A DNA stretch of 63,367 nt, filler included, from Hausera hauseri (taxonomy: Eukaryota): assembly GCA_046269625.1 (NCBI GenBank). It is 13 parts of 13 records of this genome, joined end to end, with 100 filler letters (N's around TTAATTAATTAA, not from the genome) between each part and the next. Parts side by side here need not be neighbours in the genome. Positions count along the whole stretch, not along the records: positions 32,383 to 40,163 come from JBJURY010903979.1; 12 more parts are not named here. One strand, given 5' to 3'. Under the pieces are notes generated by a model that worked only from the letters and a program-made list of their open reading frames with translations, searched no databases and was not told the DNA's origin. Every line of letters begins with the position of its first letter. Within the stretch, counting starts at the first letter, position 1. Positions 15,261 through 43,200 of the stretch are shown here, piece after piece. The position numbers were made by a program, and so were the translations under genes.

Positions 15261-15789
15261 TACGATAAGAAGCAAATGAGTAAATTATATTTGAAATATG
15301 GAGCCAACAACACGAAACAAATAACTAATCATAACTAATCATGATTTTTAAACATTCTTATTTTAATTCATTTAAACAATGTTATTTCTTCTATATTGCC
15401 GCTTGAATAAATTTAATTATGCCATTAGCAAACATTAACTATCAGATATTTTTGCAACATTTTTTGAAACATGAAATGTTTTCCGAAAAGACCGAATAAT
15501 TATCGTCTATTATCAATGTAAATCAGCCACCTCTTGTAGTCGTTTCACAAAAACTCTAATTTGTAAAAGATGATTGATCTAGATTGTTTGTTCAGATAAC
15601 TGCAGATTATCGATGTAGATGAGAGGAATTTTGATTTCAGATTCGGCGGATTACATAATGTTAAAATGTTCCTATCTGTAATAAATTGTACACACCTTAT
15701 GGTGCCATACTCGACCATTGTGAGTTGCGTTTAGTGACACCGTTATAAAAATTTGGCACCGAGGAGGAATTTCGTGTATTTTCATTTTG

Positions 15790-16345: not shown

Positions 16346-17866
16346 ATTAAAAATCATTCTGAATTCTTTAAATCAAAAGTTCAAATGAGGTCAAACTTGT
16401 TTATTAAATTTTAAAAAATGTACATAAATTAAATTTTTTGTCACAGTCAAACAAAACGTCCATTTTATTTGGGCAAATAAACACAAAAGAACAAACAGCG
16501 GGCAAATCGACTATATAGCGAACTCCGCACTTGTTCACTATTGCACCAACATGACAAAATGACAAATATAAAAATATCACGGCAACGTTTCATGGCCAAT
16601 AAATTTTTAACAAATATGTATAATTAATGATTTGTAATGTGCAGCTTTCATGGACAAGTGATTTTTTAAAGAATAGGCAATCGTTGAAATAATGGTATTA
16701 TATGCGGAATTTCATCAACAGTGCCGATTAGATCTTTAACCCATTCATGTATTTCAACACACTGCGTATCAAATTCTGTTCGATATCTCTTCGATGTCAC
16801 TGTTGGCCGATCTACAAGCTCGGGTTTTATTACAAAGACCTGTAAATAATTAAATTGTTTTGGTTCGGCAACATAATCCGACATAGATCACATTGGCATC
16901 TGTCGTGTTGGAATCCGAAAGAATCACGATGCAATCAATGTACTTCTTTACATGATTAAAAACTTATTTGATGACACTTCATCTTTGTCAATCTGTTTTC
17001 TCAGTGGAATTTCTTTGTAATCAGTAAGATAGGACTGAGAATGGAGTTGTTTCAGAATCGATTGGAGTTGTTTCATCTTCGATTCGCTAATGAAGTACAA
17101 GTAGGCCAATTCGATGTCGAGTGAGGTTTAATGAAATTTGAATTTGTAATTTTTTAGGAAAAAAGTAATAGATAACACTTTTGAGTATCTACTCAAGTCA
17201 TGCACGGTTCAAATACTGTTTATGTATTAAGCATGTAACATCTCATTTTGACTTTGTCTATATTTGCTCTGACAAATATCTTTAAGCAAGGTTCTGATCT
17301 GAAACTTTTTCTCGAAATTTGCAAATGCTATTTACAATACCAGTAATGTGACTTGGATCCAATGCTTCTACAACGTTTTCAATGGTTACACCATCATGTA
17401 CATGTGCGTCAAACTGTGAAATACGCTCTTGTAGCGTGACTGGTCGGCTGCCAATCGAGCAAAGACCAAAAGGCGAAGGCCGAGGCAGAAAACACGCCGA
17501 TCTAGCAGTGTGGAGTGCCAAGTTTAAAACCGAAATCGTGTCGACACCTGCAAACGCGCCACTACAATCGACATCGAATTTTCATTCATTTCTTCATTAT
17601 TGTATGAGATGAAATTGAACTGTTTCACACAAATGATAATTAATCTCTAGCAAGCCTTTTCCAAAATTTAAGTCATGATTTGAAAATTCAAACTGAATGT
17701 TACTGCACAATAATTTTCGTTCGTTTCATATTTTACAGTACGTCCACGATGTGATATTTGAATTTAATTAATTGGTATTTCTACAGTTCATCAAAATCTT
17801 GACATTTTAAATGCACAATTTGAAGAAACAACAATTATTCATAAAATAGTTAATTAATTAATCATA

Positions 17867-17971
17867 AAATAAATCGAATGAGGAAATGTTGAAAAATGGA
17901 AATATCCATAACGATAATTCACCCAAAAATTAAAATGAACAGTTGCAACCACATGACATAATTAATTATTA
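17867..17971 (-). repeat. Right arm of the 105-bp inverted repeat bounding contig 4
   Basis: Reverse complement of 13027-13131. Confidence 0.95.
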
Positions 17972-22196: not shown

Positions 22197-22952
22197 CGAC
22201 TTATACCATTAAATGCTTCTATTCCTATTCCGGAATATTGTTTTCTGGTTAGACACAAATCCACGACGTGCTGTGTAATACAAGCAGGACAAAAGTATCA
22301 GTTGCAATTCGATTTGTATAATACGCACCCCAGAGAGCCAAGCACTTATTTGCGTGGATTTCGCCCGAGAACTGTAATATGGGAGCTTCCTTTTCCGACC
22401 ACTACAAGTAGACTATCTACAATTCCAAGCACAACTCTCCTTATTTCGATCGTCACTTCGGACGAAAAGCCCGGAAGCATGCCAATTAAGATTTTGGCAA
22501 AAAGCGATAAAATTGTATTTTACGCGGAAGAGACACTTCTTCGAGACGTCAAGATCAAATGTCGTACTTTGCACACCAACCAAGTCGTGATCCTGAAAAA
22601 GAATAGTCAAGAAGCTGAATGTAGGTCACTACGACCGCAATATGACTATATAATCAGAATTACCGCAAAGGGTAAGAATCTTAAAACTTTTACAGTACGA
22701 ACTCTTGGCAATAGAGTTGAAGTAATACCATATAAAGATATCAGTACTCAAAATGTGTTCACCACGGAAAGTTCTATTGAGCCGAGTAATCTACCGATAA
22801 TAACTATATTCAGTTTGTTAATTTTCGTTCTTGTCATGGTAACAGCGGTGATTTTTCTAGTTTCCAAAAATTGTAGTAAGCGCTGTAAAAATCAAGAGGG
22901 AGATAAACGGGTAAAAGGGTACCGAGACGGACCTTATGATAGCATAACTTGA
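22197..22952 (+). CDS. Single-pass membrane protein with an FN3-like domain (5'-truncated); putative retroelement accessory gene
   Basis: Open frame runs to the contig edge; CRSLRPQYDYIIRITAK..FTVRTL is FN3-like; TM LPIITIFSLLIFVLVMVTAVIFLV; short basic tail ending YDSIT. Confidence 0.6.
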   Translation, partial: RLIPLNASIPIPEYCFLVRHKSTTCCVIQAGQKYQLQFDLYNTHPREPSTYLRGFRPRTVIWELPFPTTTSRLSTIPSTTLLISIVTSDEKPGSMPIKILAKSDKIVFYAEETLLRDVKIKCRTLHTNQVVILKKNSQEAECRSLRPQYDYIIRITAKGKNLKTFTVRTLGNRVEVIPYKDISTQNVFTTESSIEPSNLPIITIFSLLIFVLVMVTAVIFLVSKNCSKRCKNQEGDKRVKGYRDGPYDSIT

Positions 22953-23057
22953 CAGCTACAGGTCGGGTTATCCCATCATCAGACAGAGAAAATGTTTTGT
23001 TTCAAAACGATGATCTGTCTTAGGATTAATCTTTATTTTTATTTCAGCAAAGTAAGT

Positions 23058-25466
23058 ATGACCGAAAAGGCGAAGAATTCATCAGTCACTTCCAATTTCG
23101 ACATCTATAATTTCTTGCAACAACACGTCACTGTCCTCAAGCCGCTATCCAAAAATCTATACCGATAAATTGGAAAAAATTTGAAAAGCCAGAATTATCT
23201 AGAATTCAACCAAGAGAGTAAAATACCGAACGGACTAAAATGGGGTTTAGAAGAGAATAGATTGGTCCGATTATACGCCATGCGAAGTCGAAAAGATGCA
23301 CGAGTATACCTTTTAAAAGATCTAATTCCATATGAGCCAACACATCAGCAATTGTACGTACATGTCGCTGATGGAGAAATTCAATACAGGATGTTAGGAC
23401 AATCCTGGAGCACCCAAAAGGGACAGCAGTGGAAATTTAGCACTTATGAGATATGTTGTTATAGCCTTATGGATTATGCTCTGGAACTCAGAATTGCAGA
23501 CCTGCCGACCAAAATCATGATCGAAATGACATGGCGAACAGAAATGATGAAGCCGCTATCCCGACTATAATATGTACAAAAACCATCTGAAAACGAAATA
23601 TAGCAAAATAGGGAATCTTACAGATTAGTCCCAGATGGCCGAAATACCCGGATATTGGCCGTAAACTATGGAGAAAAGGATGACGGACGGTACTTTCCGA
23701 TCGAGGTATCCATCAGAAATACTAATGGAGAGGAAATCATAAACAAAATAATTGCACCTCGGGCTAGGATAAAAGATACTTTCCCCGACGTTACTGGAAT
23801 CACGAAGCCGCAGCTCGAAAAGGGAAAAGATTTTTTGGAGATCCAAGAAGATATAAGACATTGCTTATATGGATACGTCGTTACCGGATTCCGAGTGCAC
23901 GAAGCGTTGGAGCGACTAGGAATCAGACAAGAATACATAGCCGGAATTCGAGAATTGAGTAGAAACCCAGCAGTAGTGAGCCAAGTGGAAAGTACACTGA
24001 TACGGAAAAGAGGCTGTCTGCTGCCGTCAGCATCCCGTGAATAGCAATTTATGATGCTAGAAGCCATGAATGGCGATCGATTCAAATTCCCTAAGCTTAT
24101 GAGAACAAGCCAAAGGACCAAATTCGTAAAATATATCTATAACTCGTTACGGTGGGATCACGAATGGAAACCCAGAAGTCCCATACAGAATGCAATATCT
24201 GGCAACAACCCCAAGGCACTGATACAGAAATTCCGAAAAGGGTTTAGTGAATACCCTAGCTATCGACAGATCGAAACCCGTAAACATAACCAATTCCGAA
24301 TAACAGTCTATAACAACCCAACGGAAGCCCCAAGCAATCAACAGAAACCATCAACCAGTAAAGCTAAAGAAGTAACAATAAGAGCTGATAATTCAGAGAA
24401 ACCGAAGAGGCAAAAGACAAAGACCTCTTTTCTGGACTACATCAACAAAAAAGAAGCAAGACCAGCAAGTGCCCAACGACAGATAACCTAATCCCGGAGA
24501 AACACATAAAATATCAGAAAGGAGTAGCAAATCAAGAAAAACGGAAAGAAGATAGAGAAAACCAACTAGAAATTACTAAGCCTAAAACCCTTAAAACGGA
24601 AGTTAACGTTCTTCGGAAGAACTGGGAAGAAGATAACCCAATTATCGTCACAGAATTTGGCCAAGTAAAAGAATATAAACGAATCCACGTCATGGCCGAA
24701 TACTATAGCAAAGGGAAAATTAAAGAGACTATATTTTACGTATCTACCGTTCCAAGGCGAATAGTGAGTGGAAACGGATATGCCAGAGAAGACCACGCTA
24801 TTGGCAGATACCTAGCCACAATATTTCAATCAAAAAGTGGCACTAACAGATTAACAATTCCCGTGGATACCCAAGTTAGGATTCAACTAAAAACACAATA
24901 CAAGAAGACTGGAGTACCCGATTTGGACAAACAAGAAATAGTCGAATGGACCTTAGTCGCAGTATCCGATGACCCAAAGAAAAGCTCAATAAACCCAAAT
25001 CAAGAGATTGTACGGATACTTATATCAAGACAAGAAAGGCCTGGTATTTGAGAGAATAGAAGTGGATGAAGACCTTGTGGACATTGATGCGGCCGAAAAA
25101 GAAGAATGTCCCGTTTGTGACGCGGATCTTTATCAATGTTTCGTAGTCCTAGATAATAAGGATTGCAGCCATAAATACTGCCAATATTGTGTGGAAACGT
25201 GGACTCTAAAAAATGGGAAAACGACCTGCCCAGTATGCCAAGCCTACGCTACAAAGCTGAGATACTACTCGAATGGCGAGAACAAGAAAATAGTGGAGAT
25301 ATTGCCCGAACCAGCCACTACATCCTATCATATTAATTTGCAATCACCATCTAACGAAACAGATTCGGAAGCGGACTTACACGGACGAATGCACAGATTA
25401 CGCGGCACCTCTACTGACGCAATGGGCACATCCGAGAGTGCCGTTCAGAATAGACAAATGTTGTAG
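23058..25466 (+). pseudogene. Accessory polyprotein: VHL/BC-box-like region, REX4/ISG20-type DEDDh-like domain, basic linker, C3HC4 RING finger
   Basis: ATG 23058 and the ORFs at 23181, 23655, 24051 and 25008 share one frame (24692-25051 is shifted); TRILAVNYGE..IEVSIRNTNGEEIINKIIAP..DVTGITKPQL..DFLEIQ..GYVVTG; CPVC..CSHKYCQYC..CPVC. Confidence 0.7.
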
Positions 25467-26180
25467 AATGGCCGTTGTAGACTATGAAACCGAAACCGAA
25501 ATTGAATGTAAATAATTACATAGACGGAAAAGTAGAAATAATGACAATGAATTAATTATAAACAATTGAATCAAACTAATTATAGCAATTGAATGATGTA
25601 TACGGATTGTAAATAGAATTGAATTATATTGAATACAGAAAATCAATTTAATTACAAAATTAATTGCATGTAAACAATGGCTCTAAACGTATATATAAAA
25701 GATGTACATACAGTAATCGTAGTAGTTCTTAACCAGAAGCTATTTAACAAGTTGTCAGTTAGTCAGTTGTTATACGATTCTCAGTCAGTATTATTCCGTG
25801 GATCAAAGACTTGAAATTGACGATTATATTCGAACTATTGCTTTTTGATCTGACATTATTTCTGTTGAATCGAAATTATTGTTAAGGTATAATTTTCGTG
25901 TTTAATAAATTTTTGTATCTAAATTTCTAATAGTTTTCCGTCGCTCCTTACGAGGGACTTGCACCATACTAAGTTTTAAAATCATTGTAAAATCCATAGC
26001 TAAGTTGAGAATTTTGTAACTTACGCAATCACCGCATATACAGTACACGCATCTTAAATCAGTGCAAACATTCTAACGAGAGCGTTAGATCTTACCTGCG
26101 CGACTAATATTATCTAAATCTTAAAACTTACTCATTGTTATAGTTGGGTGTTGGATAGGGCCCACCTTCAACTATTAACA
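25459..26180 (+). mobile_element. LTR of the gag-env element (5' boundary approximate)
   Basis: Ends ...TTAACA just before the PBS; TATATAAAA near 25692; AATAAA at 25904; 3' part similar to 32383-32634; candidate TGTT start at 25459. Confidence 0.8.
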
Positions 26181-26183
26181 TTT

Positions 26184-26201
26184 TGGCGACCCTAGAAGGA
26201 C
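26184..26201 (+). promoter_or_regulatory. Primer-binding site, tRNA-Arg type
   Basis: TGGCGACCCTAGAAGGAC, 3 nt after the LTR; complementary to a ...GTCC...GGGTCGCCA tRNA-Arg 3' end. Confidence 0.75.
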
Positions 26202-26259
26202 AGTTTGCACTTGCTAGACTTGACTCTTAGTGAAAAGTAACGACGTATTAGCGATCAGA

Positions 26260-28085
26260 GCGGTAATTATGATCGCCGAAACGATCGATACAGCAATCAG
26301 AACTTTGATAATAGTTGAAATAGCTTTTCTAATAAATCAAATTACCAGACAGATAAACGCCTAAATGGCTCTAAAAACTTTAGTCGACAAAATGACAACC
26401 GGAGTTATGATAATCGTCAGTATGAAGACCCCAGACAGACTCCACCGCAGCAAGGTTACAATAGAAATCCGAGTAGACCGAAATCTCCATTAAACGAAGA
26501 TGGCCGACAAAGGGTTGGAACAAATGGCAATTTAGTCTGTTTCACATGTGGACAAGAAAGACACATAGCGAGGTCCTGTCCGAATCAGCGAAGTGTCGAA
26601 TTTGTGGAACCTAGTAAAACCAATGTAATTAAAAACGAAAATTTAGAAGCAATTTACGGTGTTCGTAGAGACACAGGAATGATTATTGAGATACAGAATT
26701 TACCACGTTTCTTAAAAGCCCAGCCTGAGACTAAGGACCCCAAAGTTTTAGTGGCTAGAAATGAATATAAGCACAAATTACGACTAATGGAAGTTTACCA
26801 CGGCCTGCGTGAACCAGAAAAGGAATATGAACATTCCATTGCCCCACCAAGGCTAACTGTTATGGTTCGGAAAAAGAACGCTCCTACGATAAACAAAGAA
26901 CCAATCGAATCAGGGATGCCTGAAACTCCGGATAAGGAAGATTCAGAACCTGAGTATGCTATAGAAAAGGTAACCAAGGAGACAGAGCCCGACGAAAAAG
27001 AAGAATTTATCGAACCGCTTATACTTAAAATCACCAAGAATAGAAGCCGTAGCCCATCACTGAGACGGACACGTAAGGATCGTTCGAGATCCCCAATGAT
27101 CAAAGAGAAATCAAGGACAGAGATACGGAATTCGCATTAGAGAGTGAAACGGAGTGTGCCCCACACATTTCGAAAATTAATTTAGTTACGCCCAGCGAAA
27201 TGGGTGAGCTGATGAAATCTATAGATGAAATAAATGATGTATGTCGCTTACCTGCAAGCGAAGAGGAAACAGAACGAGAAGAAAAACTCGATCCTAAAAG
27301 TGGAAAATTAGGCGCTGGTGGAAAAAATGCAGAGAAGTTAAAAAGAATAAGGATGAATTATCGCAAACCAGAGGTATTACGACAGAATCTAAAGAAGCTC
27401 AAAGCAATGAACGAACAAGTGGATATTTCTAGTAAAGAACAGCAGTTTGTAGAAAGATTATATAAAAAATATGAAACTATGTAGCGAAGGGAAACTAAGT
27501 GAATCTATAGATTTGGATCAGCCAGAAGTGGCAAAAAACCCTAGTTCATTGAAAACGTGAATTAGAACGCTGGTTCAAAAGACGAAATTTCCGGAGACAT
27601 GGGATAAAACTACCCAAAACATTGAAACTAGGGTCAACCAGTCTCAGACGTTATTAGCCACATTAGAAGCCAACCCGAAATTAAAAAGAGCAGCACGTAA
27701 TTTGGAGCGTGTCATGGACGAATTTAGATTCATCATAGTTAAACAGGTAAAAAAGAAGCCGGTCAAAGAACGAGATGCAAACGACTTAGAGATATTGGGT
27801 ATAGATATATTAGATATTCCGCCCTTAACGGAAATGATAAAAATCGCTTTTACTGCGACAAGGCAATATACTAGTCTGGAAAACCGTCTTAAAATAAAAG
27901 TCGAAATGCGATCGCAAATATATAGTCTAAGGAATAGGATCATGCACCCAGCTGATATAGAAACACAAAAAATAATTCTTACTTGTATCCTCGAATTCGA
28001 TGAATATAAAGATGAGTTTGACTATGCCTACAGGATTATCGATTTTATTAGAGGTCCAGATGACGAGTTAGATGACGCCCGCAAA
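26260..28085 (+). pseudogene. gag: gag-env element copy A: capsid deleted; CCHC knuckle in frame with unknown region X
   Basis: CFTCGQERHIARSC at 26538-26579 reads straight into VEPSKTNVIK; collinear with 33786-35610. Confidence 0.85.
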
Positions 28086-28185: not shown

Positions 28186-28690
28186 GTCACTGAGGCATAT
28201 TTCTCTTCTCATCTCTGTGTTGTTACAACATTGGAACAATAGTTCCTCTTCCAGAGCCTCGCATGAAAGATTGTGCTTCATTACTTTGTCCAGAAGTTTC
28301 TTGATTGTCTCGAAGTAAACATCTGGTTCCGCCCCATTCTTTTTGTACTCGAGCGCTTCTTTTAGATCTTAGCATAGCGTTGAGGGTCGTGCGAAAGCCT
28401 TCTGTAGTCGGTTTTGGTATCCCGTTATCCTTGGATCTACTGCCTCGTATCTTTCTAATTCATCTTCCTCCAAGAGGCATTCAATCATGATTTCCCGCTT
28501 CTCCGCCGAAGTGTTAATGTATTTAAAGAATTTTTCACATCCTTTAATGAACTTCTCCACGTCGTCGCCTTTCCTAAATTTGTTAGGCAACAATTGATTC
28601 GCGAAAATATCCGTCCTGGCGTCATCGCCATGTTAGCTGCGTACGCATCCACGTTGTCCACGTCATCGCCCAGCTTGGGTAGAGTTGGAA
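28186..28690 (-). mobile_element. gag: Gag fragment of a separate LTR retrotransposon
   Basis: LPNKFRKGDDVEKFIKGCEKFF..YQNRLQKAF; possible LTR end/PBS (TACA-AC-TGGTG) on the minus strand near 28760-28770. Confidence 0.55.
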
Positions 28691-29219
28691 AATACCCACT
28701 CTCTGGTATGTTTGCTGAATCAGAATTGGATCGTTTGAAATTACTTATTGAAAAGTAAACACCAGTTGTAGAAAATTTTTATTATAATCCAAAATACTTA
28801 TTTGGAAACAAATTTTCCCAAATTATAAATTCAAATCAAAATTTTAATATTACACTTTTAAATTAAATTTTTTTTAATTTAAAAATTGTTGTAACTTAAA
28901 TTTAGAATTTGCGTTCTCCATTATATCCTCACAGTTATAGCACTGGACAACAGAAAGAGTCAAATTATTTACTCTTTGCAATAAAACCTACCACTTTACA
29001 ACAAAATGAGACAGAACGCATCAGTTATTACCTTGACATAACGGAACTCAAACAACCAATTAAGGAATCTGGAAGCTATGCTCAATCTCAGGATAGTTTG
29101 ATGGTTATGTTATCAAACAGAACAATAACAAACTATTGTGCAGCAAGCTATATAGACGACACAGACGATCATAATGATATACTAACGTTCCTTCAATTAA
29201 TAAGAGGTAATTGGCCTCA

Positions 29220-32200
29220 TGCGACAGCTCATTTTGGCACTTTTGATTTAAATGCAATGATTGAAACAAGAGCCAGTATTTCGCTAATAGCACGGCATGC
29301 AATACCTAACAAATTCCAGTCTCAAATAAAACTAGTTCCAAAAGATTGTACAGGAACTATTTCAGTTTTCCACTAATGTTCAAAACCTTATGGATACTGG
29401 AAATATGAACTACTGATTTGTGAACAAAGGATTAAAGTAACACAGGATGTAATGAATACTTATACCCTCGATGCATTATAGGGATGAATGTATTACGAAA
29501 ACTCAAAGGGTTCCATATTAACCTACAGTCAAGATCTATCTGTCCTAATAAAGATATTCCCAGAAATTATGAAAAAGCAGATATTTGGCTAGAACATATT
29601 AAGAAAATACCGCCGAATTCTAGGATGGTTATTCACACTAGAATAATATTTTCGGATAACAGCATCATTGAATTCGTACCACAAATTATTCTAAATGGAC
29701 TTATATTATCACACTACTGTGTCAATGCGATAGGAGGAACAACTCCTATTGAAGTATTGAACCCATCGCCAAAATACATCACATTATTTCCAAGAATGAA
29801 GATTGAACAAGCACATGAAATTATTCGTCACGCTGAAATTGACAGAAAGCTTGCAGCAGTTTCTTTAGATATGGAAAAGAAAGTCGAAGATATGCTCGAT
29901 ACTGTTCTCGTAAAGGCGAAGAAAAATTTATCAGTGGAACATTTAAATAATTTCTCAGAACTAATTTATGAATAAATTTATATATTCGCTAAAGATGAGA
30001 CCGACATTGGGCGAACCGATTTAGTCGAATTCAAAATGTCATTCTTGACTGATCCTCAGACAGGAAAGGAGATAGATTTATTGCAACAACCTATATTAAA
30101 GTGATACCCACATCCTAAAGCACTCCAAAAGGAAGTTTAGGAACAAATACAAACAATGTTGGATAAAGGCATCATTGAGACTAGTCAGTAACCGTAGCCA
30201 TCGCCTAGTTATGGCAAGAAAGTCAATACTACAAAACATCGTTTGTGTGTAAACTACTTTACATTGACTAAGCATCTCATGAACCGTGCTTATCCAATAC
30301 CGTGAATACGACATATTATCGACGAACTTAAGGACTGTAAGTATTTTACTACTTGGGATTTGCAGAGTGGATTTTGGCAGATTCCCGTAGCTGAAAGTAC
30401 CATTAGAAGACTGCGTTCAAAACACATGCAGAAGTTTACCAATTTACACGCATGCCATTCGGGCTAAAAACAGCATTAACGTTCTTTCAAGAATTTATCC
30501 GTCTAGTCCTAAAAGAAGTACGTGGATTGTCGTGTACAGACGATATTTTGATTGCAGCAAAAACTTGGTCAGCACACTTAATGGGATTACGAGAAGTATT
30601 CGACCGGATTAAACTTGCGAAATTGAAACTAAATCCAAAAAAGTGTGAATGGCGTAAAAACAAAGTTCGATATCTTGGATTTGTAGTTTCAAACCAAGGA
30701 ATATCTACCAGTCCGGATTTAATAGCCAAAATATTTAAGTATCCCCCACATACCAGTTTTCACGAAATGAGAGTTTGGTTGGGATTTGGAGGATTTTACG
30801 CCACTTTTAAAGAAAATTTTGCCGAAATTAATCAACCACAATATAAACCGTTGAGAAAGGACTGGAAATGGGAATGGACCGAAAAAAATCAAACTTCTGA
30901 TGAAATTCACCGACGTTTAGTATCTGCGGCAATGGTGAGATATCCAGATTTTTCCTTACCGTTCATCTTAAAAGCAGACGCCAGCATCAAGCAATCAGTT
31001 ACATTTTGCACAACAGAACCCGGACGAGTTAATTGAACATGTAATTGCTTATGGAGGACGCAGTTTAAACAACGCTGAGAGAAAATACTCTACCACAGTT
31101 AGAATTGCTAGCAATACGCGACAGATTACGTCACTACAATTATTATGTTTATGGACACAAAATTATGGAAGTTAGAACTCTTGAATTATGATGTTTAGTA
31201 TAGATACCGACCGGAAAGGAAAATACGGATGCAGACACAATTTCGCGATTATCATATGAGAAAATAGTAGTTTTGGTACATAAGCCAAGGGTTACACAAT
31301 AATATAGGTAACTGAATGAAAAAATAATTAACGAGATGCTACATGAACAGCAACAAGTTCAGGTTCGAAATATCGAAACCTTATAAAATCAAGATCCATT
31401 TATTGTTCAAGTCAAACAAATAGTAAATGGACAAATGACTGAGCAAGTGTCAAATCAAATTCAGAAATTTTATGAGAAACGAAAGGAACAATTAGAAATT
31501 GAAAATGGCATTCTAAAACTCAATGTCGGAGAACGAAAACTCATAATCGTACCTAATATAGCAATTAAATCTGTGATGTTACAAGAGCACGATTCGCATC
31601 TAGCAGGTCATCCATCTTTAAATAAGACACTAAAGCATATAACCGCAAAATATTATTGTCCTCAGATGAACAAGCATATTAAAGGATGGGTACGCTCTTG
31701 CAAAATGTGCGCAACTCGAAAAGATAAAGGATTTCGTGCAAAACCATTTCTAGGAAGCCTTCCTGAAGCACGACAACCTATGGAAGTTTGTTCAATGGAC
31801 ATTTCGGGACCTTTTCCAACATCTGATTCAAGATATAAATATATTCTGTCACTCGTAAATTATTATTCGAGATATGTCGTTTTGGTCCCATTGAAAAATA
31901 TGACAAGCAGTACTGTCGCAGAAGCCTTTTCTATCAAATAGTATCCGTATTAGGCATGCCGAAACAGTTGTTAACTGACCGCGCACCATATTTTATCAGC
32001 AAATTTTTCGAGAAATTAACAAAGATTTTTCAATGCAAACATTTGTTAACTACATCCTACTATCCACTATGTAATGGTATGGTTGAAAGAATGAATCGAA
32101 CAATTCAAGGTATTCTGTCCACAAAAGTCGTCCATGATCAGAAAAATTGGAACCAACATTTAAAAACAACTTCATACGCAATAAACACTACACCTACGAA

Positions 32201-32282
32201 AAGCACCAATCATTTACCATTTGAATTAATGTTAGGACGATTACCATTATTACCATTAGATACTGAATTATTACCATCTTCC
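29220..32282 (+). mobile_element. pol: Ty3/gypsy pol (PR, RT, RNase H, IN), decayed
   Basis: AMIETRASISL; MPFGLKTA..CTDDILI; FILKADAS; HDSHLAGH..CKMC; MDISGPF; LTDRAPYF; NGMVERMNRTI. Confidence 0.93.
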
Positions 32283-32382: not shown

Positions 32383-32634
32383 TCTTATAGTTTCCGTCGC
32401 TCCTTACGAGGGACATAGAAATGCTAATCTAAGGATTAAAATCACATTAAACTTTATAGATAGGTCGAGAGTCGATTAAACTACGCAAGGCACCGCAAGC
32501 AGTACACGCATTCTAAATTTGTGCAAACATTCTATCGAGAACGTTAGAACTTATCTGCCTAATATTATTGTTAAATCAAATTTCATTACTGTTATAGTTG
32601 GGTGTTGGATAGGGCCCACCTTCAACTATTAACA
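32383..32634 (+). mobile_element. 3' part of the 5' LTR of gag-env element copy B; PBS at 32637-32654
   Basis: Homologous to 25930-26180, with an identical ATAGTTGGGTGTTGGATAGGGCCCACCTTCAACTATTAACA end; PBS TGGCGACCCCAACAGGAC. Confidence 0.88.
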
Positions 32635-32922
32635 TTTGGCGACCCCAACAGGACAGTTTGCACTTGCTAGACTTGACTTTTAGTGAAAAGTAGCGACACA
32701 TTAGCGATCAGCGTTAACACATCAAATAATTGATTGCAGGTTGTCGTGAGACTAAAATTTGGGATTATAAAGAAACCCTCAATATTATAACGACATATTA
32801 TTTAATCAAGAGCGAATATTGATAAACATAGGTCAGACGATAGCTTAAATCTTATTCTAAACGGTAAGGAGAGTATTAATTTTCGCGAAACACGTAATAA
32901 AGTATATAGACAAGATAAGACG

Positions 32923-34110
32923 TTGATTAGTCGCACTTTATCTGAAACGAATTTAGCTAACACTGAACCTATTAATTTAAACTCTGTTGGAAAGCATACT
33001 GAATTTAAAGTTCCTGATAAGAGAATTAGACCTCGTAAAATAATTGAGCAAAACCTAATAAACGTTGAAAACATGGTTGAAAATCGGGCAGTAGCTCAGA
33101 AACTGGATATTTTTACATTTGGCTGTCTGAATTTGCCAGCATATAACGGAGACCCGGACGGACTTAACGAATTCTTAAGGATTTATAAGTTGCAAGCAGA
33201 AGGTGCTGGACTAGCAGCTAACGTGATGATTGAACGTTTGTCGTTATATTTGAAGAATCTGGCCGCTGATGCCTATAGTGAGCTCACTGATGATGAGAAG
33301 AAAACGTGGTCCTCCCTGGTAGGAGTTCTGAACCGAAAATTATTGCCGACTGTAACTCCGCAACAAAAATTTATGGCTTTCCAGAATAGAGCACAACAAA
33401 AGGGTGAATCCATAACCCAATTCGCTTTTGCCTTAAAGAAATTGGCAAACAGTTACTCAAGCACCTTAAGAATCGCAAACATAGCCAAGGCTAAAAACGA
33501 AGCAGAACAAAAAGCCGCAGAAAAGGCAGGTCCTCCAGATTTGGACGTCATGATGATGACACAGTTAATAAACGGTATTTGGTCTAAAGACATACTAAAG
33601 CAACTGATTCTAGCGCGCCCGGAGAACTTTGATAGGACATTGCAATTAGCTTAGGACTTGGAAATTGCACTAGAAACAACGACAGAAATGGAAGAAATAA
33701 TGATCAAAGTAATCGATGTAATAGAAATCGGAATAATAGAAATGATAGACGAATTAACAGGAATTATGGGGATCGGAACAAGAACGGTAATTATGATCGC
33801 AGGAACGATCGATACAGTAACCAGAATTTTGATAATAGTCGAAATAGTTTTTCTAGTAAATCAAACTATCATACGAATAAACGGCTAGATGGCCCCAAAA
33901 ATTTTAATCTACAGAATGACAGCCGGAATTACGATAACCGCCAATATATGGATTGTAGGCAAGCCCCGTAGCAGAAAGGCTACAATAGAAATCTTAGTAG
34001 ATCGAAATCCCCAATAAACGAAGATGGCCGACAAAAGATCGGAAAAATGGCAACTTAATCTGTTATACATGCGGACAAGAAGGACATATAGCGAGATCCG
34101 GCCCAAACCC
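32923..34110 (+). pseudogene. gag: Ty3/gypsy-type Gag (capsid, RN-rich linker, zinc knuckle), copy B
   Basis: LPAYNGDPDGLNEFL..LYLKNLAADAY..QQKGESITQFAFALKKLA; CYTCGQEGHIARS at 34061. Confidence 0.9.
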
Positions 34111-37100
34111 TCGAAGTGTTTCGTTTGTCGAACCTAGTAAAATTAATGTGATTAAAAACGAAAATTTAAAAGCAATTTACGGTGTTTGTAGAGACACGGG
34201 TATGGTCATCGAGATACAAGATTTACGACGTTTCTTGAAGGCCCAGCTTGATACTAAGGACCCTACAGGTTTAGTGGCTAGAAACGAGTACGAACATAAG
34301 TTACGATCATTATAAGTTTATCACGGTGTGCGCGAACCAAAAACGGAATATAAACGTTCCATTGCCCCCCTAAGGCTCAGTGATATGGCACGGAAGAAGA
34401 ACATTCCTACGGTAAGTAAAAAGTTAGATGAAATAGGAAAACCTAGGACTCCGGACAAGGTAGATTTAGGTGTAGAATCCGAATATACTATAAAAAGGGT
34501 AACCAAGGAGTCTGAGGCCGACGAAAAAGAAGAATTTCTGGAACCACTGATACTTAAAATTACGAAAAATAGAGGCCGTAGTCTATCATTGAGACGAAAA
34601 CGCAAGGATCGCCCGAGATCCCCGATGATTAAGTAGAAACCGAGCACAAAGATAGAAACCGAAATCGCTTTAGAAAACGACATAGAGTGCGCCCCGAACG
34701 TTCTAGAAATTAATTTAGTTACGCCCAGCGAAATGGATGATCTGACGAAATCTGTAAATAAGATAAACGATATATGTCCTTTACCTACTAGCGAATAGGA
34801 AACAAAACAGGAGAAGAAACTTGATCCTGAAAAGTGGAAAATTAGACGCTCGTGGAAAAATGCCGATGAATTAAAAAGAATGAGGATAAATTGCTTCAAC
34901 CCAGAGGTAGTGCAACAGAATCTAGATAAACTCAAGGCAATGAATGAACAAGTGGATATTTCCGGCAAGAAACGGCAGTTTGTAGAGAGATTATATAAAA
35001 AGATGAAATTATACAGCGAAGGGAAACTAACTGAAGCTATAGACTTAGATCAACCGGAAGAAGTGACAAAAGAAAAACTAGACAAATGGAAATGCGAGCT
35101 GGGAGTCTGGATGAAAAGTGGGATGAAAACTCCAGAAGCGTAGAATAAAACCACCAAAGATATTGAAACTAGAATCAACCAAGCTCGGTAGCTATTAGCT
35201 ACATTTAAATTAAAAAGAGTAGTACGTAATTTGGAGCGTGTCATGAATGAAATTAGATTTGCAATAGTCGAACGACTTAAGGAAAAACCGGTCAAGGAAC
35301 AAGATGCACATGACCTAGAGATGTTGGGCATAGATTCGATAGATATTCCACCCTGAATGGAAATAATAAAGGTTACTTCGACGGCCTCAAAGCAATATAC
35401 AAGTATGAAAAATCGTATTAAAATTGAAGCCGAAAAACGGTCGCAGATATATGGTTTAAGGAATAGAATTATGCACATCAATAACGAAGAAACACACAAA
35501 ATAATTATGGCTTGCATCCTCGAGTTCGATGAATACAATGACAAATTTGACTATGCCTGCAGGATCATCGATTTTATTAAAGGTTCAGATGATGAGCTAG
35601 AGGACGCTCACAAAATGTTAAACAAAGCAATATTGGCAAAGCCAGAAATCGCTAATCAGTTGAAAGAATGGTCCAAAGTAATAACAAGGTTGAGTGCATT
35701 GATAAACAATCGGAAGAACGAATTTCCAGAGAGCGAGCCTACAGTGAAAAAGCGATTAGAAAAAGACTCCCGAAATCTAGATACTATGAAGGCAGAAACT
35801 GACCTCCGAACTCAATTTGAGGCATTACGTCAATTGGATTTTATGGAAAATAAACAAGAAATGGCGATACTAGATGATATATATATAAGATGATCGAAGA
35901 AACAAACTTCATGCGGAAACGAAACGCGACTTGTGATTTCTATCCGCGATTAAGAGATATCCGGCTGAAAGGAATACGGTATTTGACAACCAAACCTATC
36001 GAGGAAATCTCAATCCGTGACCTTAGAACCTTGGACTTTTGTCCCGAATCTCGGTCAATGGTGGAAGAAGCGGTGAAGTTCTTACACCAGCCACAAGAAT
36101 GGATAGATGGGACGGATCAAATGCATCAAATGAACTGAATAAAATGAAGAACGACCACCGCCTTAGCTTCGAAGAAATCAAATTTGTAAAAAAGCTATTA
36201 GATGCGATAGATCCAAATTCAAAAAGTATTAACGAGATGTATGAATTAGCGTTGCTGATGGCGGAAATGGCAGAAATTAATGACGAGAAACTAAGACAAT
36301 TGTTGCAGCAGATACAACAAGTCGAAGAAACTTGCATTAAAACGAAACAGAGAGCAATGAGATTAGACAAACTCGCTAGAGAACTCGACGTCTATAAGAA
36401 CAAATATGCCCTTAACGAAGCAAAAAAGGCTGACAAGTCATAATTCGTGCAAAGCTGGCAAAGATATGTCACGTCCGAACTAACAAGCTATCAAGAACAA
36501 TGACTGATTTCTGCAGAAGAATTATGTTCGTTGTTAACGCTGCTACACCAAACTTCTGCTAATGGGCGCTGTTTTCGAACGACGAAAATGGTCCAAATGC
36601 AACAAAAACTACAAGAACTCAGAAAAACTACATGGACCGCAGGTGTGAATATGCCAACTAATGCACCGTCAAGTGACTATGAACTGCCGGATAATGAGAA
36701 TGAAACAGAATAGGAGGCATATTTAGATGCAGTGATTGCCGAGAACCCTAAAACTCCCATACGACGGAGAGAAACGGAGGTATATTTTTCGGACCAAAGA
36801 TTTAACGTAGGAATGCTCCTAGACCCAATACAAACCGAGAAATATTTAATTCAGTTGATCGAAGTAAATCTCACGGAAATTTAATTATGACAGTTGGTCC
36901 CCACTCTAACTAAATTAGCTAGCGAAGGTACGATATATAGTACGGTACCTAAGCTTTTACTTAAGAAGCATGCTAAATTCTTAAAGAAAAAGGCAGAGGA
37001 GACGATTCCAGTAAAGATAGTATCTGACTGGATGGCCGAGAAGGAGCACGAGTTCACTACGCGCTCCCGCGTGAAAGACGTAATATGGTGGATAAGAAAT

Positions 37101-37947
37101 AATGGGTACAACCAGGAGTTAAACTACAGACTCTATTTTAGAGGGAGAATACTAGAGGAAACGGAGCTGTTAATAGAAGTCAGCATTATTCCAAGTGAAG
37201 CAAACCGTATAGTTGTAGCCATTCCTATCGAAGAAACAAAAGAAGAAGCCATAAGAAATTCTAAAGAGAAACAGTGCGTAGGATGAATCATAGGAGTTCG
37301 AGATGCAGTAATGTATTTAGAGTACTTGCAGACAGACAGAGATAATGAGCAATACGATAAGAATTTAGTACCCATTAACGATAACGTACTTGCTGTAACA
37401 AAACAGAAGCGTCTTGTCGGTAAGCTGCGGAAAATACGAGAGGAAATCGATTACAATGGAGATTTAATCAAAGAGTTGAGGCAAATGTCCATACCGACCT
37501 TCAGTACGGATAATGAGGAACTGAACGAACTTATGAAGAATTTGATTCAAATAGTAAACTACTCTAGTCTCGGCGGTGATATATTGGATGAGAAAGAGAA
37601 GGCCATATCTAATGCCGCAAGGGCCATGAAGGGCCTCCGGTGTAAATTATTCAGAAGTACCTTAAGCGATGAAGCGGTGATTGAGAAAATTATGGCCGAA
37701 AATAACATAGAAGAATTAAGAAAAGTGTTGCTATATCTGGCCATTAAAACTAACCCAAACCGAGAAAATGAATTCAACAAGACTACTAGTTTAACACGGA
37801 AGGCTGCCAGGAAACTACCTCGAGAGGTGAACTGGTCTAAGTTATTCGAAAAAGAAGAAGAACATCAAAGTAGATCATTCTTCGGTAACAATAAATTCAA
37901 AGATCTGCTACGAAATGCAACCGGAAATCACAGAAGAAATCAGTCGA
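34111..37947 (+). pseudogene. Unknown charged, helical region X fused to gag, including a ubiquitin-like domain near 37000-37220
   Basis: Consecutive ORF fragments homologous to 26604-28085 and 52750-54293; no PR/RT/RH/IN motifs; ETIPVKIV..RVKDV..YRLYFRGRILEETELLIEVSI is UBL-like. Confidence 0.75.
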
Positions 37948-40061
37948 ACTGGCTAATCAACTTTTTGACCATGATGGTGTTAATAAGACAAATGGGTGCG
38001 GTTGCAGTATATGATTGCAACAAATTTAGACTTGGCCAAAAATATTCAATAATGGACTTGGAAATGTGCGAAGACGCGAGACCACACAAATTAGAAACAA
38101 AAGAGAAAAGTTACGTCCTGTATCAACAACGCAAACTAGTCACGTTGGATGGAGTAGAATGTATGTTGCAACAATATCGCAGCATCTTTCATTGTGGCCT
38201 GGTACACGGACACTCGTCAATAATCAAGCCAACAACCCCGCCAATTCCGATGAACTTAGAATGACAGCATTGTAAGCAAGCTAGAGAAACTGGGAAAATA
38301 AAATGAAACGGCATGGAACTGGAAATGCAACAAAACAAAATAATCAGAGTATACAAAGTAGCGGCAGAAAGACTAGATATGCACACCGGAAAATGATTAG
38401 AGTCGAATATTTTAGTAGTAGACTTTTATGAAACCGAAATGCGCATACAGAAGGTAATGTTCCATAGTGTTACTAAACTTTACACCGAGAACTATAAGTG
38501 TCACATTCAAGATGGCACATGCCCGTTCCGAAGTTTTATAGTAATTTGGGAACCTCCAGCCAAGACCGATTGCAACTTTATCAGAATTAAAGAACTTAAA
38601 TTCAATGAGACGACAGGAAAACGGTACATAAGTAGTACAGAAACTTATTTTAAAACACTAGAAGATGTAGTTAAACAGTCCACACCAACGATACGGATCT
38701 CTGATACCCACGGACTAAAGTTTGTGAAGAAAGATGTACTCACAAGATGTGACGTTATACTGTACGCTACCAACTATGAAGTATTTTTAGTCGTGGAGAC
38801 GGAAATAAACGCCAGAACGTTCAAGCTCGAGATTCAGGACATCCGGATTGAAGGCTATTTGAAGAACAGAGACAACTATTTCTACTATAAGGGACAAGCG
38901 GGAATAGCCGAGCTATACCACAAAATGATAACCAATGACTGCAAGTTGTATTTAGAAATAATAAGAACTAAGCTGGCCCTAATATATGCCAATCTCGAGT
39001 TGGCATCACCAATAATTCCAATGAAGGAAGGTGTTTTTGGACGGGTAACCCGAGAGGTCTTATTGACATATGAGTGCGAGATGAAAGACGTACAGATTAA
39101 CGTGGAAGAGAAGAGGTGTATACAAGAGCTTCCCGTAATATATCAGGACGTACCTAGAAAAGTAACACCAATTACCAGAGTATTGTTGTCAAATTCTACC
39201 CAACCGACAATCCTGAAAGATTGTAAGACCAGCCTGGGCCAGCCGATGTTCAGAAGAAGTGAAACCGACGGGGTAATTTTACCGAGCAGCGGTATTATCG
39301 CACCACCTGCCAAGTTGACAGGGACAAACTTAATAAAAGGAATAACCAATGATAAATTTTAAGATACAGCCGCGAAAGGTATTTACCGACCAAAAGAAGT
39401 AGAGGCGTTCAGACAATTTCTCGACTTCCCTTGTCAGCGTACGCGCGAACTGAATCGAGCAATGCACACAATATTGGAGGATTCGTGCTACCAAGCGAGA
39501 TGGGAGTCATTACTCGGTTTTGGCTATTATAAAAAGCTAACTACGGAAATACTGTACAAAATTTGGGGAAGGTTCCTGATATTCGGACAAGCCGCGTCAG
39601 GATTTCTAACGATATACTTCTTAATTCAACTGGTAAAGGCTATAATTCAAGCAATCATAAATGGATATGAGATATTTACTTTGACAGGATTTTCGTGCAA
39701 AATTTTAACGGCTATTATTACACCTTTCGGCAAATTCTTAAGGGCTTATGAAGAGAGTAAATAAAAAGCAGATGCGCAGCGACACGTTGGCTATCATAAT
39801 CGAAAACGTAAAAGACGCATATTTGATTATAGGCAAAAATTCGTAGGTAGTAAGACACGAAGAAATAATTCTGACGATGACGAGCCTAAGGGTGGAGACG
39901 TCATCTCTAAATTGAACAGGCACAAAAATTACTTTGTTATAAAACTACCATTACCAATATTGCCGCCAACGGCACCTACATATGAAGATTGCGAGAAACA
40001 ATCTATGAGCTCGTGCCAGACAGACGTCTATCGGAAGCCGTTTAGTTTAGAAGACCTGTAA
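37948..40061 (+). pseudogene. env: Envelope glycoprotein, chuvirus-like class III type, copy B
   Basis: Internal signal WLINFLTMMVLIRQMGA then VAVYDC..YSIMDLEMC..Q..ECMLQQYRSIFHCG..HSSII; C-terminal WGRFLIFGQAASGFLTIYFLIQLVKAIIQAIING..TGFSCKILTAI, the pattern of Chuviridae G proteins. Confidence 0.8.
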
Positions 40062-40263
40062 GGTTCCACCTTACAAAAAGAAAAAATATAAAAATCACAA
40101 TATAAAATCACGGATTCATGTACAAACAAAAATTAAATTATCAAAATAAAATTAATATTCAGCNNNNNNNNNNNNNNNNNNNNNNNNNNNNNNNNNNNNN
40201 NNNNNNNTTAATTAATTAANNNNNNNNNNNNNNNNNNNNNNNNNNNNNNNNNNNNNNNNNNNN

Positions 40264-43200
40264 GGCTGCACCTTCAAACCAAACACGAACGACGGAAGTA
40301 CTACCTTTTCTTTTAATAGTCTTCCTAGTTCACCTTTTCAGAAAAATTAAATTTCTCACCAGAAGTCACGGCAAACTCTAGCAAAGACACTACTTTATTT
40401 TCTGAACGCCGACACGACTCTTTTGATGTCTTTACTCTAAAGGCCGCAATAACCACTCCTACAACGCAATCCTTTGACTTCCTAATTGATACAGGTGCAA
40501 CGATTTCCTTATTACCACAATCTTTTCCTGTACAAAATTCACCATTCCGAATTAAACCCTTATACACCGCTTTAGGTCAACCGCTGCACATTTCTGGAAC
40601 GGCTAAATTATCCTTTACCTTACCAAAATTTCCTTCACCGTTCCACTGGACGTTCACAGTTGATAATGTCTAGACGGCAATACTACGGTCCGATTATTTA
40701 TTACATTATAATTTATTGGTCGTCACTTTTACACTTCGTACAAAAAGAGGACGGTACTTTTAGACATGCGGTGACTACCACCAGTTAAAAAACTTGACAA
40801 TCATGGATGCATACCTCTTGCCACTCATCAAGGACATCCTACATCGCCTTAATTAAACTACCATTTATTCGACCATCGATTTGGCTAAAGCATACCACCA
40901 AATACGAGTGACATCCGAAGACATAGAAAAAACTGCTCTCACTACTCCTTTTAGCCTCTACGAGTACCTGTTTATGCCTTTCGGTTTGCGAAATGCTGCA
41001 CAGATCTTTCAGCGACATATTGACTCAATTCTCTCAGATTTTCCGTTTGAGCACCCTTACATTAATGATATTCTGATCGTTTCGTCTTCGGTCAAACAAC
41101 ACGAGGAACACCTCCGCGCAATATTCCAACGCCTTTACCACTATAATCTACAAGCCAATTTCGAAAAATTCCATTTTTTCAAAAAACGCATCAACCTTTT
41201 AGGCTACGTTATTTCACCAGACGGCCACTCTCCTCAACCAGACCGAGTTGAAGCCCTTAAAAATATCCTGTTACCACATACGACCACCGAAATGCGCAGC
41301 TTCCTTAGTACACTACACTTTGTACATAAATATGTATCATATTGCTCCACAGTTACAGCACCATTTGCACACTTGAGCGGTGGCAAAAAACATCAGCCAA
41401 TCCAGTGGACACCTGAATTGGTAGAAAAATTTGATAAGTTACGCGAAGGAATTAAGACCGTCGATATTCTCGCTTTCCCCATACCTGATGCAGAACTCAT
41501 CCTTACTACAGACGCTTCAACTACTGCGGTAGGTGCTGTACTCCACCAGATCTACAAAGGAGAAAATCAACCGCTAGAATTTTTCTCGCGCAAGCTAACA
41601 TCCCCTGAAACCAGATATTCAACGTTCGATCGAGAGTTATTGGCCATCGTTCTTGCTTTAAAGCATTTTTCCCACCTACTTGTCGCTCGCCATTTTACTA
41701 TACAAACCGATCACAAACACTTACTTAACATCATGGCTATAAAACATCCTTCCACACGCCAAGAACCACAGATATCATACTTGTCGACATTTAACTTTTA
41801 CATAAAACATATTAATGGGGTTAATAATTTGATTGCCCACTTTGTATCTAGGTCGGTTAGTTCGATTAATTTTTCACGGATTTTTACGCAAGTTTAACTT
41901 CAACAGAACCAGCTACCTCAAGACATGCTTAATTCTTTCGAATCTTGCACAATTTTTGACGGCGTGGCTTTAGACACTTCCAAACCAGTTTATTCCGTAA
42001 TATTTCTCGCCCCATCATTGCAAATGCAAGCATTTAATGCAGTACATTCGCTACATTATCCTGGTGCTAAAGCCACTTTTTGTTTACTCAATCGACAAGT
42101 AATATGGCCGTCAATGCGTTCTGATGTACAGGCATGGGTTAAGGAGTTTGTGGCATGCCAAAAATTCAAAACAACTAAGCATTTAAAGCCATCACTGTTC
42201 CACTTCCCCTGCACAAAGCGTTTCGAGTCCGTGAATATCGACATCGTTGGCCCTCTTCCTCCAGATAACGATCATCAATTTATTCTCACCATGATGGACC
42301 GTTCCTCGCGATGGCAAGAAGCCATTCCTCTGCGGGGCACGAACACCGATACCATAGCTGACGTTTTCATTTGCACATGCATTAGAAGGTTTGGATCACC
42401 TTGCTTCATCATCACGCAGCAGGGTCAACAGTTTGAATCCAACCTGTTCAGATCCATTGTTAACCAATTCGGGATCCATCATATACATACTACGCTTTAC
42501 CATCCCCAATCGAATGTCCTCCTAGAGCGCCTCCACCGAACATTGAAAACGTCACTATGAATCCTTGCAGAGTCCAACACTAGTTGGACAAACCTTCTTC
42601 CGTTTGTTTTGCTTGGCTGGCGGAACACTCCGTCCACTTCTACGGGATGTTGACCACCTGAAGCCTTATTCGGAGCTCCTGTACGATCATTTTTCGAGCT
42701 AACTGCCCTAGACGACACTCCTACAGATGAAACGATACGGGTGGCGCAAAATCACTTCCTTACGGTCAGCAAAGATTCGTTCTGCAGGATACTTCACAAA
42801 GACAAAACATATTTACCCGAAGACTTGTATTCGGCAAAATTCGTATAGCTAAAAAATCAAACACCGTGCGGTTTTCAGCTGCGGTATCTGGGGTCCTATA
42901 AACGGATACAGCTGCATTCACATAATGCTATTATCTCTAAAGACGGCAAAGAAATTACAGTACATATTACCAACTTAAAGCCCGCCTTCTTTGTCGACGA
43001 TACTTCACCAATCGACACGTCAACCTCCATTTTCACTCCCACATTTCCTGCTGTTCCTTTATCTGTTGCTACACCAGTTTCACCTCCTTCTTTTGCTCCT
43101 AGTTCTGCTTCATCATTTTCCACAACTTCTGCCTCTATTCCTATCTCTCTCATTTCTCTACCACTCCCTCAGTCTCATTTTCTACTTCTGCACTTTCACC

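What the first reader, a model, noticed from the sequence alone, without database searches (positions are those of the whole stretch)
32383..40163. LTR retroelement family with a single Gag-X-UBL-Env polyprotein and no pol between gag and env
Seen: LTR end, tRNA-Arg PBS, Ty3-type capsid and CCHC knuckle, then about 3.8 kb of coding sequence with no PR, RT, RNase H or IN motif, then an envelope gene. Overlapping parts of this layout recur in two other clearly diverged copies (26184-28085; 50283-54293 minus), so it is a family, not a one-off deletion. The knuckle reads in frame into X in both copies that have it. The TGA at 37284 is a sense CAA in copy C. Together these imply one ancestral ORF of about 2,300 codons. 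Established: env-bearing Ty3/gypsy and BEL elements normally have gag-pol-env. Inference: this is either a helper-dependent enveloped satellite or one half of a bipartite retroelement supplying the structural proteins, or an element with pol relocated downstream of env. The stretch between env and the accessory cassette is not assembled here, so the second option stays open.
Basis: partly seen in the sequence, partly recalled or inferred. Interest (0 to 1): 0.9.

Follow-up and report, generated by a model that had tools for sequence, protein, structure and literature searches.

The report
Front half of Burro-like retrotransposon
This is most likely the decayed front half of a large virus-like jumping gene whose envelope gene sits before, not after, its copying enzymes; that order is already described in flatworms, nematodes and bryozoans, and the enzymes are probably missing only because the assembled piece ends first.

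Summary
In detail: LTR end, primer site, capsid, zinc knuckle, about 3.8 kb with no protease, RT, RNase H or integrase, then a chuvirus-type envelope gene. Three diverged copies share no stop codon, and the whole stretch was under purifying selection. The pol-less reading is unlikely. The window is a chain of short contigs and this one ends 161 codons after env. Of the 18 closest relatives of the env, 11 continue in frame into protease (6 on into RT), none has pol before env, and 7 end in or just behind env. Another contig here (44551-47388) carries a pol of that lineage, and the cassette before the LTR in contig A matches the relatives' post-integrase membrane protein. Gag-knuckle-coiled region-ubiquitin-like-BCL2-Env-PR-dUTPase-RT-RH-IN in one ORF is the published layout of planarian Burro elements; GAG-ENV-POL order is also published for nematodes, bryozoans and flatworms. 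The ubiquitin-like domain is weakly supported here; a Bcl-2-like domain shows in relatives but is inconclusive in this copy. The env-to-pol junction itself was not seen, so a pol-less family keeps about 8%.

The parts
32383..32634 (+). 3' end of the 5' LTR, cut by the contig start
   Evidence: 78-80% identical to the LTR in contig A, ends in CA
32637..32654 (+). primer-binding site, probably tRNA-Arg
   Evidence: first 11 bases shared with A; 8 of 8 and 10 of 12 bases pair with listed tRNA-Arg 3' ends
32806..33690 (+). Gag capsid region, one stop
   Evidence: PF03732 E 0.014; relatives' Gag profile E 1e-17; tblastn of P0022 E 6e-16
33690..34045 (+). Arg/Asn-rich nucleocapsid linker between two frame breaks
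   Evidence: pN/pS 0.17 against A; like stretches in P0010, P0017
34061..34102 (+). zinc knuckle, last Cys lost in this copy
   Evidence: PF00098 E 7e-5
34103..36790 (+). region X, about 900 codons, charged and helical-looking, no family; two frame breaks; stands where Burro has Smc-like and MATH domains
   Evidence: pN/pS 0.30-0.47; no significant Pfam or NCBIfam hit; one homologous fragment, P0063, E 3e-19
36792..37220 (+). short helical domain followed by a probable ubiquitin-like domain
   Evidence: z 4.1 and 4.3 against the same region of P0017 and P0022, z 1.0 against P0009, C copy not significant; Atlas ubiquitin clusters at 0.87-0.88, a lead only; strand/helix order fits a beta-grasp but pLDDT 37
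37485..37877 (+). all-helical pre-env domain at the place of the Bcl-2-like domain of relatives and Burro; fold not established in this copy
   Evidence: relatives' profile hits Bcl-xL at E 0.003; B model pLDDT 58, Foldseek rank 1 Mcl-1 at E 1.1; no Bcl-2 protein among 50 VIA rows; no pairwise significance
37947..39761 (+). envelope glycoprotein of chuvirus/mononegavirus type, signal-like segment near 37953 and membrane anchor near 39603; four stops
   Evidence: PF24664 E 1.5e-46; hydropathy; env tree
39762..40163 (+). cytoplasmic tail with a PTAP-like motif (label recalled), then about 100 A-rich bases unlike copy C, then the contig end
   Evidence: 67% identical to C up to 40056
22197..22952 (+). 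contig A: type I membrane protein with beta-rich Cys units, homologous to the post-integrase protein of the relatives
   Evidence: profile from relatives only: single hit among 72 frames, 22485-22691, E 1.5e-7; anchor at 22806
23050..25466 (+). contig A: broken accessory ORF(s) with a weak DEDD exonuclease-like stretch and a C-terminal RING finger
   Evidence: RING E 7e-6; dnaq E 0.078; SDN1 E 0.2 and ISG20L2 E 0.65, below an unrelated hit at E 0.075
25460..26180 (+). contig A: LTR of about 720 bases behind a purine-rich stretch; the start is my reading of the sequence
   Evidence: 3' part matches B
26184..28085 (+). copy A: PBS, leader, deletion of the capsid region, then linker, knuckle and X
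50283..54293 (-). copy C: end of X, UBL, pre-env domain, env and an open tail running off the contig
44551..47388 (+). contig D: pol (PR, dUTPase-like, RT, RNase H) of the env-pol lineage, no gag within the 150 codons before PR; candidate cognate or sister-family pol, not physically linked

Best explanation
Contig B is a dead copy of the 5' half of a large Ty3/gypsy element of the Burro type. The active element read one long ORF: Gag capsid, knuckle, region X, ubiquitin-like domain, Bcl-2-like position, Env, then PR, dUTPase-like, RT, RNase H, integrase and a second membrane protein, followed by an accessory RING gene and the 3' LTR. Shown: the 5' order in this window, selection on it, the env-pol fusion in relatives, a pol of that lineage in the window, and the post-integrase protein before this family's LTR. 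Inferred: that this family's own env ran into pol; that an internal signal sequence puts Env in the ER lumen while Gag and, behind the membrane anchor, Pol stay cytoplasmic and are cut out by signal peptidase and the element's protease; that the UBL, Bcl-2-like and RING parts act on host ubiquitination and cell death while particles are made.
For: Of 18 hits with E up to 1e-30, 11 have protease after env in the same protein, 6 go on into RT/RH and 4 to integrase; 0 have pol before env; 7 end inside env or within 44 residues of it. B and C env fall in the clade of these proteins (100/100), apart from the other 9 envs, among them the two with pol-side domains before env. P0010, P0015, P0019 and P0022 carry Gag in frame before env. 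Contig D's RT is 44-52% identical to five env-pol polyproteins, against 32-37% for two other window pols; on shared columns it beats all three others in 15 of 15 comparisons. In an independent search, D's three best hits of near-full coverage (P0154, P0156, P0157; 254, 250, 241 bits) are 48-54% identical to P0005/P0006 over 950-1,200 residues and end in a post-integrase membrane protein, whose profile hits contig A before the LTR. D shares B's A-rich coding strand. Published layouts match.
Against: The junction was not seen. No protease lies in the 161 (B) or 230 (C) codons after env, whereas 7 of 9 relatives have one within 88-183 codons and 2 at 328-348. B's last 100 bases differ from C and hold stops. 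D's start does not match B's or C's tail, so D may be a sister family. The RT tree does not resolve D's place, and many ordinary gypsy RTs reach 45-53% identity with D; none of the 120 listed hits carries the env family in its precomputed domains, and P0156 has the small membrane protein, not env, before PR. Relatives are only about 30% identical in env. The Bcl-2 fold is not shown for B.
Confidence: 0.85

Rival explanations
1. A family that never carries pol: LTR-gag-X-UBL-env-cassette-LTR, copied in trans by a pol-bearing partner such as the contig D element (satellite or bipartite element).
For: No protease within 161 and 230 codons after env; B's tail turns A-rich with stops; selection on the whole ORF and many diverged copies fit an active structural element too; P0156 shows a pol of this lineage with no env directly before it.
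Against: 11 of the 18 nearest relatives fuse env to pol and none is shown to end as a pol-less element; C's frame stays open to the contig end; the cassette's first protein is in frame behind integrase in relatives; two relatives have env-to-protease linkers longer than C's assembled tail.
Confidence: 0.08
2. The family is gag-env-pol, but copy B itself, like copy A with its capsid deletion, belongs to a deleted non-autonomous subfamily that lost pol behind env.
For: A shows that internal deletions occur; B departs from C at 40056, before the contig ends; a joint at 40152 in run X1 shows rearrangement there.
Against: Run X1 has depth in the last bin as in all 30; no LTR or cassette sequence follows the break. 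This reading leaves the family's architecture as in the best explanation.
Confidence: 0.05
3. X is a pol diverged beyond recognition, or env was added to a gag-only element from a BEL/Pao or chuvirus insertion.
For: X has about the length of a pol and no family hit.
Against: Unfiltered lineage profiles find no pol domain in A, B or C but do in all four other pol contigs; env groups with the gypsy env-pol proteins, not with the DUF5641 (BEL-type) or IN-env proteins; the same order and selection hold in diverged copies.
Confidence: 0.02

Closest known systems
Burro (GYPSM1) giant Ty3/gypsy elements of planarians; PMC6431247, section read whole; PMC13465017, passages
   Same: One ORF with Gag, CCHC, a long insert, ubiquitin/SUMO-like, BCL2-like, a mononegavirus-like fusion protein in frame before PR, dUTPase-like between PR and RT; accessory genes; a RING domain; many copies.
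   Different: No MATH, BIR or ankyrin hit here; one knuckle, not two or three; a post-integrase membrane protein and a DEDD-like stretch are not named in the text I read; host unknown here, whereas Burro1 is described as planarian-specific. No Burro sequence was available for a tree.
GAG-ENV-POL errantiviruses with HSV/gB-type ENV in Nematoda, Bryozoa, Platyhelminthes; PMC13524379, abstract, first parts of two result sections, passages, rows of supplementary file 1
   Same: Env before pol in a Ty3/gypsy element; class III-type env with signal and anchor.
   Different: The main text has no hit for Bcl, ubiquitin, apopto, accessory or fibronectin. None of the 49 nematode, bryozoan and flatworm rows I saw is labelled with an Arg primer (6 nematode rows unseen). 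Figures and five other supplements were not seen.
Nematode endogenous retroviruses of Sacco et al. 2022 (not held; cited in PMC13524379; details recalled)
   Same: Continuous gag-env-pro-pol ORF with an RNA-virus glycoprotein (recalled).
   Different: Recalled as shorter and without a UBL/Bcl-2 insert; not checked.
Rotifer Juno/Vesta LTR elements; PMC5408684, passages
   Same: dUTPase between PR and RT; extra 3' ORFs including DEDDy exonucleases and small membrane proteins.
   Different: Their env is paramyxovirus-like and lies in ORF3 behind pol.
Anakin, BEL/Pao elements with chuvirus glycoprotein; PMC7642597, search listing only, name and layout recalled
   Same: Same Pfam glycoprotein family.
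   Different: Different superfamily; env after pol; the BEL-type hit falls in the other env clade.

Membership tests
Ty3/gypsy LTR retrotransposon | LTR ending in CA with adjacent tRNA primer site | tested here: met
Ty3/gypsy LTR retrotransposon | Ty3-type capsid and CCHC knuckle | tested here: met
Ty3/gypsy LTR retrotransposon | own pol in the order PR-RT-RH-IN | tested here: inconclusive
   present in relatives and, up to RNase H, on unlinked contig D; not on B
Ty3/gypsy LTR retrotransposon | two LTRs and a target-site duplication | not testable with these tools
   no genome held; contigs of 4-8 kb
Burro-like / GAG-ENV-POL | env follows gag with no pol between | tested here: met
Burro-like / GAG-ENV-POL | mononegavirus/chuvirus-like fusion glycoprotein | tested here: met
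   PF24664 E 1.5e-46
Burro-like / GAG-ENV-POL | pol follows env in frame | tested here: inconclusive
   11 of 18 relatives; junction not assembled in B or C
Burro-like / GAG-ENV-POL | ubiquitin/SUMO-like domain before env | tested here: inconclusive
   several weak concordant signals; none significant alone; B+C profile found no ubiquitin in the PDB
Burro-like / GAG-ENV-POL | BCL2-like domain directly before env | tested here: inconclusive
   relatives E 0.003, Pfam 0.001-0.2; B itself not significant
Burro-like / GAG-ENV-POL | dUTPase-like domain between PR and RT | tested here: inconclusive
   a conserved insert at that place in D and relatives (E 7e-16); the dUTPase label comes from the paper and recall, Pfam gave no dUTPase hit
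Burro proper | MATH, BIR, ankyrin domains | tested here: inconclusive
   no Pfam hit in A, B, C, but the copies are decayed and partial
Burro proper | RT groups with Burro RTs; planarian host; 25-30 kb | not testable with these tools
   no Burro sequence or host genome on hand
Non-autonomous pol-less element | complete LTR-to-LTR copy without pol | not testable with these tools
   no complete copy; no listed contig of run X1 spans the stretch

The most novel reading that the evidence does not exclude
The family is a conserved pol-less enveloped element that supplies Gag, Env and cell-death or ubiquitin modifiers and is copied by a partner of the contig D / P0156 kind, whose pol has no env directly before it: a Burro-type genome split into a structural and an enzymatic half that keep the same membrane-protein cassette.
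Probability: 0.08. Interest if true: 0.8.

Novelty: new member of a known kind. Interest (0 to 1): 0.3.

Why it matters
As read here it adds a member to a small, little-studied group. Its value is comparative: the UBL-Bcl-2-Env-Pol order described for planarian Burro shows in several unnamed relatives about 30% identical in env, with a post-integrase membrane protein that I did not find named in the passages read, which suggests a wider lineage of provirus-like elements carrying cell-death and ubiquitin modules. Burro1 is reported to protect stem cells from apoptosis (PMC13465017, citing its ref. 23), so the modules can be tested. A true pol-less or split form would be much more surprising, but nothing here shows one.

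Tried and rejected
No genome held. Word-based protein searches found nothing for B env among longer proteins or for X among shorter ones; the first also missed relatives that one search found, so these blanks say little. Locus scans of viral contigs and metagenome contigs confirmed no locus; the env alignment was too diverse to search with. No RNA holder listed. The 406-residue model (pLDDT 37) gave no meaningful fold match. Profile-profile comparisons of B+C with relatives were not significant. Atlas gave no usable hit for the pre-env region. A profile of relatives' env ends, meant to test whether D begins with an env end, missed D but also missed B and C, so it is uninformative; pairwise z of D's start against 10 relatives' linkers reached 3.7 and 3.1 in two and under 2.4 in eight. 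No solved structure matches env by sequence. No tRNA gene in the window. Earlier findings of the scan: none that bears. Paper searches turned up no pol-less enveloped gypsy family in their listings, but none was aimed at that; I make no claim that it is absent from print.
Full report
Setting. The window is not one locus. After a repeat-filled first 4.5 kb it is a chain of 12 contigs of 4-8 kb joined by N-spacers. The finding is exactly one contig (B, 32383-40163), so what follows env is cut off by the assembly. No genome is held. The host is not known; one other contig holds a metazoan SRP RNA gene.

Observation. B holds an LTR end, a PBS at 32637 that most likely pairs with tRNA-Arg, a capsid, a knuckle, about 3.8 kb without pol domains and a PF24664 glycoprotein (E 1.5e-46). 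The absence of pol was tested three ways: Pfam on six frames, motifs and unfiltered profiles built from the relatives' own PR, dUTPase-like, RT/RH and IN, which hit nothing in A, B or C at E up to 0.5 but found PR and RT in all 4 other pol-bearing contigs. Copies A and C are 78% and 67% identical to B. In 9 aligned regions pN/pS is 0.17-0.47 with every bootstrap interval below 0.6, synonymous sites between B and C are near saturation, and 0 of 16 stops in B are shared with the other copy. X, the UBL region and the pre-env spacer were thus coding and selected, and the stops are copy-specific decay. In the one run that holds the stretch, 14,367 contigs lay on all 30 bins of B, 11,764 of them under 95% alike: a large diverged family, though this is no copy number and the run may be the source sample. 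That run also lists length differences at or beside three of B's four frame breaks; A reads in frame across the second; the first is bridged only by relatives with Gag and env in one protein.

What it is. A search of B's last 1,199 codons against 1.84 billion representatives gave 18 hits at E up to 1e-30. Eleven carry protease after env in the same protein, 6 go on into RT/RNase H and 4 to integrase; none has pol before env; 7 end in or within 44 residues of env. Among all 150 listed hits, 14 have pol domains after env and 2 before. In an env tree of 22 rows (20 hits chosen by me) B and C group with the env-pol proteins at 100/100, apart from 9 other envs including the BEL-type and IN-env ones. 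P0005 shows nearly the whole layout in one ORF: knuckle, insert, env, PR, RT, RH, IN, membrane protein (the knuckle read by eye). Its database label, a bacterial bin, is surely a mis-binned eukaryote contig (inference); the other 9 looked up are unnamed.

Two other contigs supply the missing parts by homology. Contig D (44551-47388) has PR, an insert, RT and RNase H with no gag in the 150 codons before PR; it is the window's best match to the env-pol proteins, and its own three best full-coverage database hits belong to that lineage (rank 2 of the list, P0155, aligns at only 36% and was not examined further). Contig A has, before an LTR of this family, a membrane protein hit by a profile of the relatives' post-integrase units (one hit in 72 frames, E 1.5e-7), then a broken ORF with a weak DEDD-like stretch and a RING finger. 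So this family's 3' end carries the module that relatives translate in frame behind integrase. The A contig may be a tandem sharing one LTR or an assembly join through the LTR; either way the cassette precedes this LTR.

Against this. The env-pol junction was not seen. B runs 161 and C 230 codons past env without protease, longer than 7 of 9 relatives' linkers and shorter than 2. D's start does not match B's or C's tail, the RT tree leaves D unresolved, ordinary gypsy RTs come close in identity, and P0156 has the small membrane protein rather than env before its protease. D may therefore be a sister family.

The insert. Relatives P0009, P0017 and P0022 show a helical domain plus a ubiquitin-like stretch, and P0004, P0007, P0017 and P0022 a BH1/BH2-like stretch just before the env signal (seen by eye). 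A profile of these alone hits Bcl-xL at E 0.003 and a ubiquitin-like domain at E 0.027 (rows were picked by eye, which favours the result). For B the UBL has weak concordant support and one blank. The Bcl-2-like fold is inconclusive: same place and all-helical, Mcl-1 ranks first in Foldseek but at E 1.1 with TM about 0.3, from an alignment that held the Bcl-2-like relatives, and VIA lists no Bcl-2 protein among 50 rows. X remains without a family.

Mechanism. Most likely one polyprotein: cytoplasmic Gag, X, UBL and Bcl-2-like part; an internal signal (hydrophobic segment at 37953) that sends Env into the ER; an anchor at 39603; Pol on the cytoplasmic side; a second signal and anchor for the post-integrase protein. 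Processing by signal peptidase and the element's protease, budding through the tail's PTAP-like motif and interference with host cell death are inferences from retroviral and RNA-virus biology (own knowledge) and from the reported anti-apoptotic role of Burro1.

Comparison. PMC6431247 (section read whole) describes Burro's single ORF as Gag, CCHC knuckles, Smc-like and MATH domains, Ubi2/SUMO-like, BCL-2, an env with hits to mononegavirus fusion proteins, PR, dUTPase-like, RT, RH, IN, and calls it the first case of in-frame env between gag and pol. PMC13524379 (parts listed under Closest known systems) reports GAG-ENV-POL elements in Nematoda, Bryozoa and Platyhelminthes that are not one clade. 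It works like Burro; whether it is a member of Burro proper could not be tested without those sequences. Figures and five unread supplements of PMC13524379 may bear on that.

Verdict. Observation confirmed; pol-less reading about 8%; decayed 5' half of a Burro-like GAG-ENV-POL element about 85%. New member of a known kind; interest 0.3.

Noticed in passing
window 57556-57854: Full-length metazoan SRP RNA gene, 266 bits. It looks vertebrate-like to me (recalled, untested), so the chained contigs may not all come from one organism.
   Followed up: partly
window 25460-26260: Contig A joins an element's 3' end, one LTR, PBS and leader directly to the Arg/Asn linker, about 1.07 kb with the capsid missing: tandem with shared LTR, deleted derivative, or assembly join.
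   Followed up: partly
window 11918-12924 (-): Broken, apparently intronless AAA ATPase (PF00004 E 1e-15) upstream of a gypsy gag-pol on the same strand (8925-11055); captured gene or neighbour.
   Followed up: no
window 59800-63366 (-) and 5287-6275 (-): Pieces that look by eye like a Polinton-type DNA polymerase B (no Pfam hit on the open frames) and an rve integrase (E 2e-10).
   Followed up: no
window 13027-17971: Contig bounded by 112-base inverted repeats, 97% alike; probable DNA transposon.
   Followed up: no
window 47400-48830: The pol of contig D is cut before integrase by a piggyBac-like transposase remnant (PF13843 E 6e-5).
   Followed up: no
P0004, P0006, P0008, P0009, P0015: Two to four tandem protease domains follow env in several relatives; P0006 has another behind integrase.
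   Followed up: no
P0156: The signal/beta-unit/anchor protein stands both before protease and after integrase in one ORF.
   Followed up: partly
window 28186-32282 and 40264-42900: Two further decayed gypsy pols outside the env-pol lineage; the second is 70% alike to the pol at 8925-10200.
   Followed up: partly
window 800-3980: T/G-rich simple repeat broken by many N runs.
   Followed up: no
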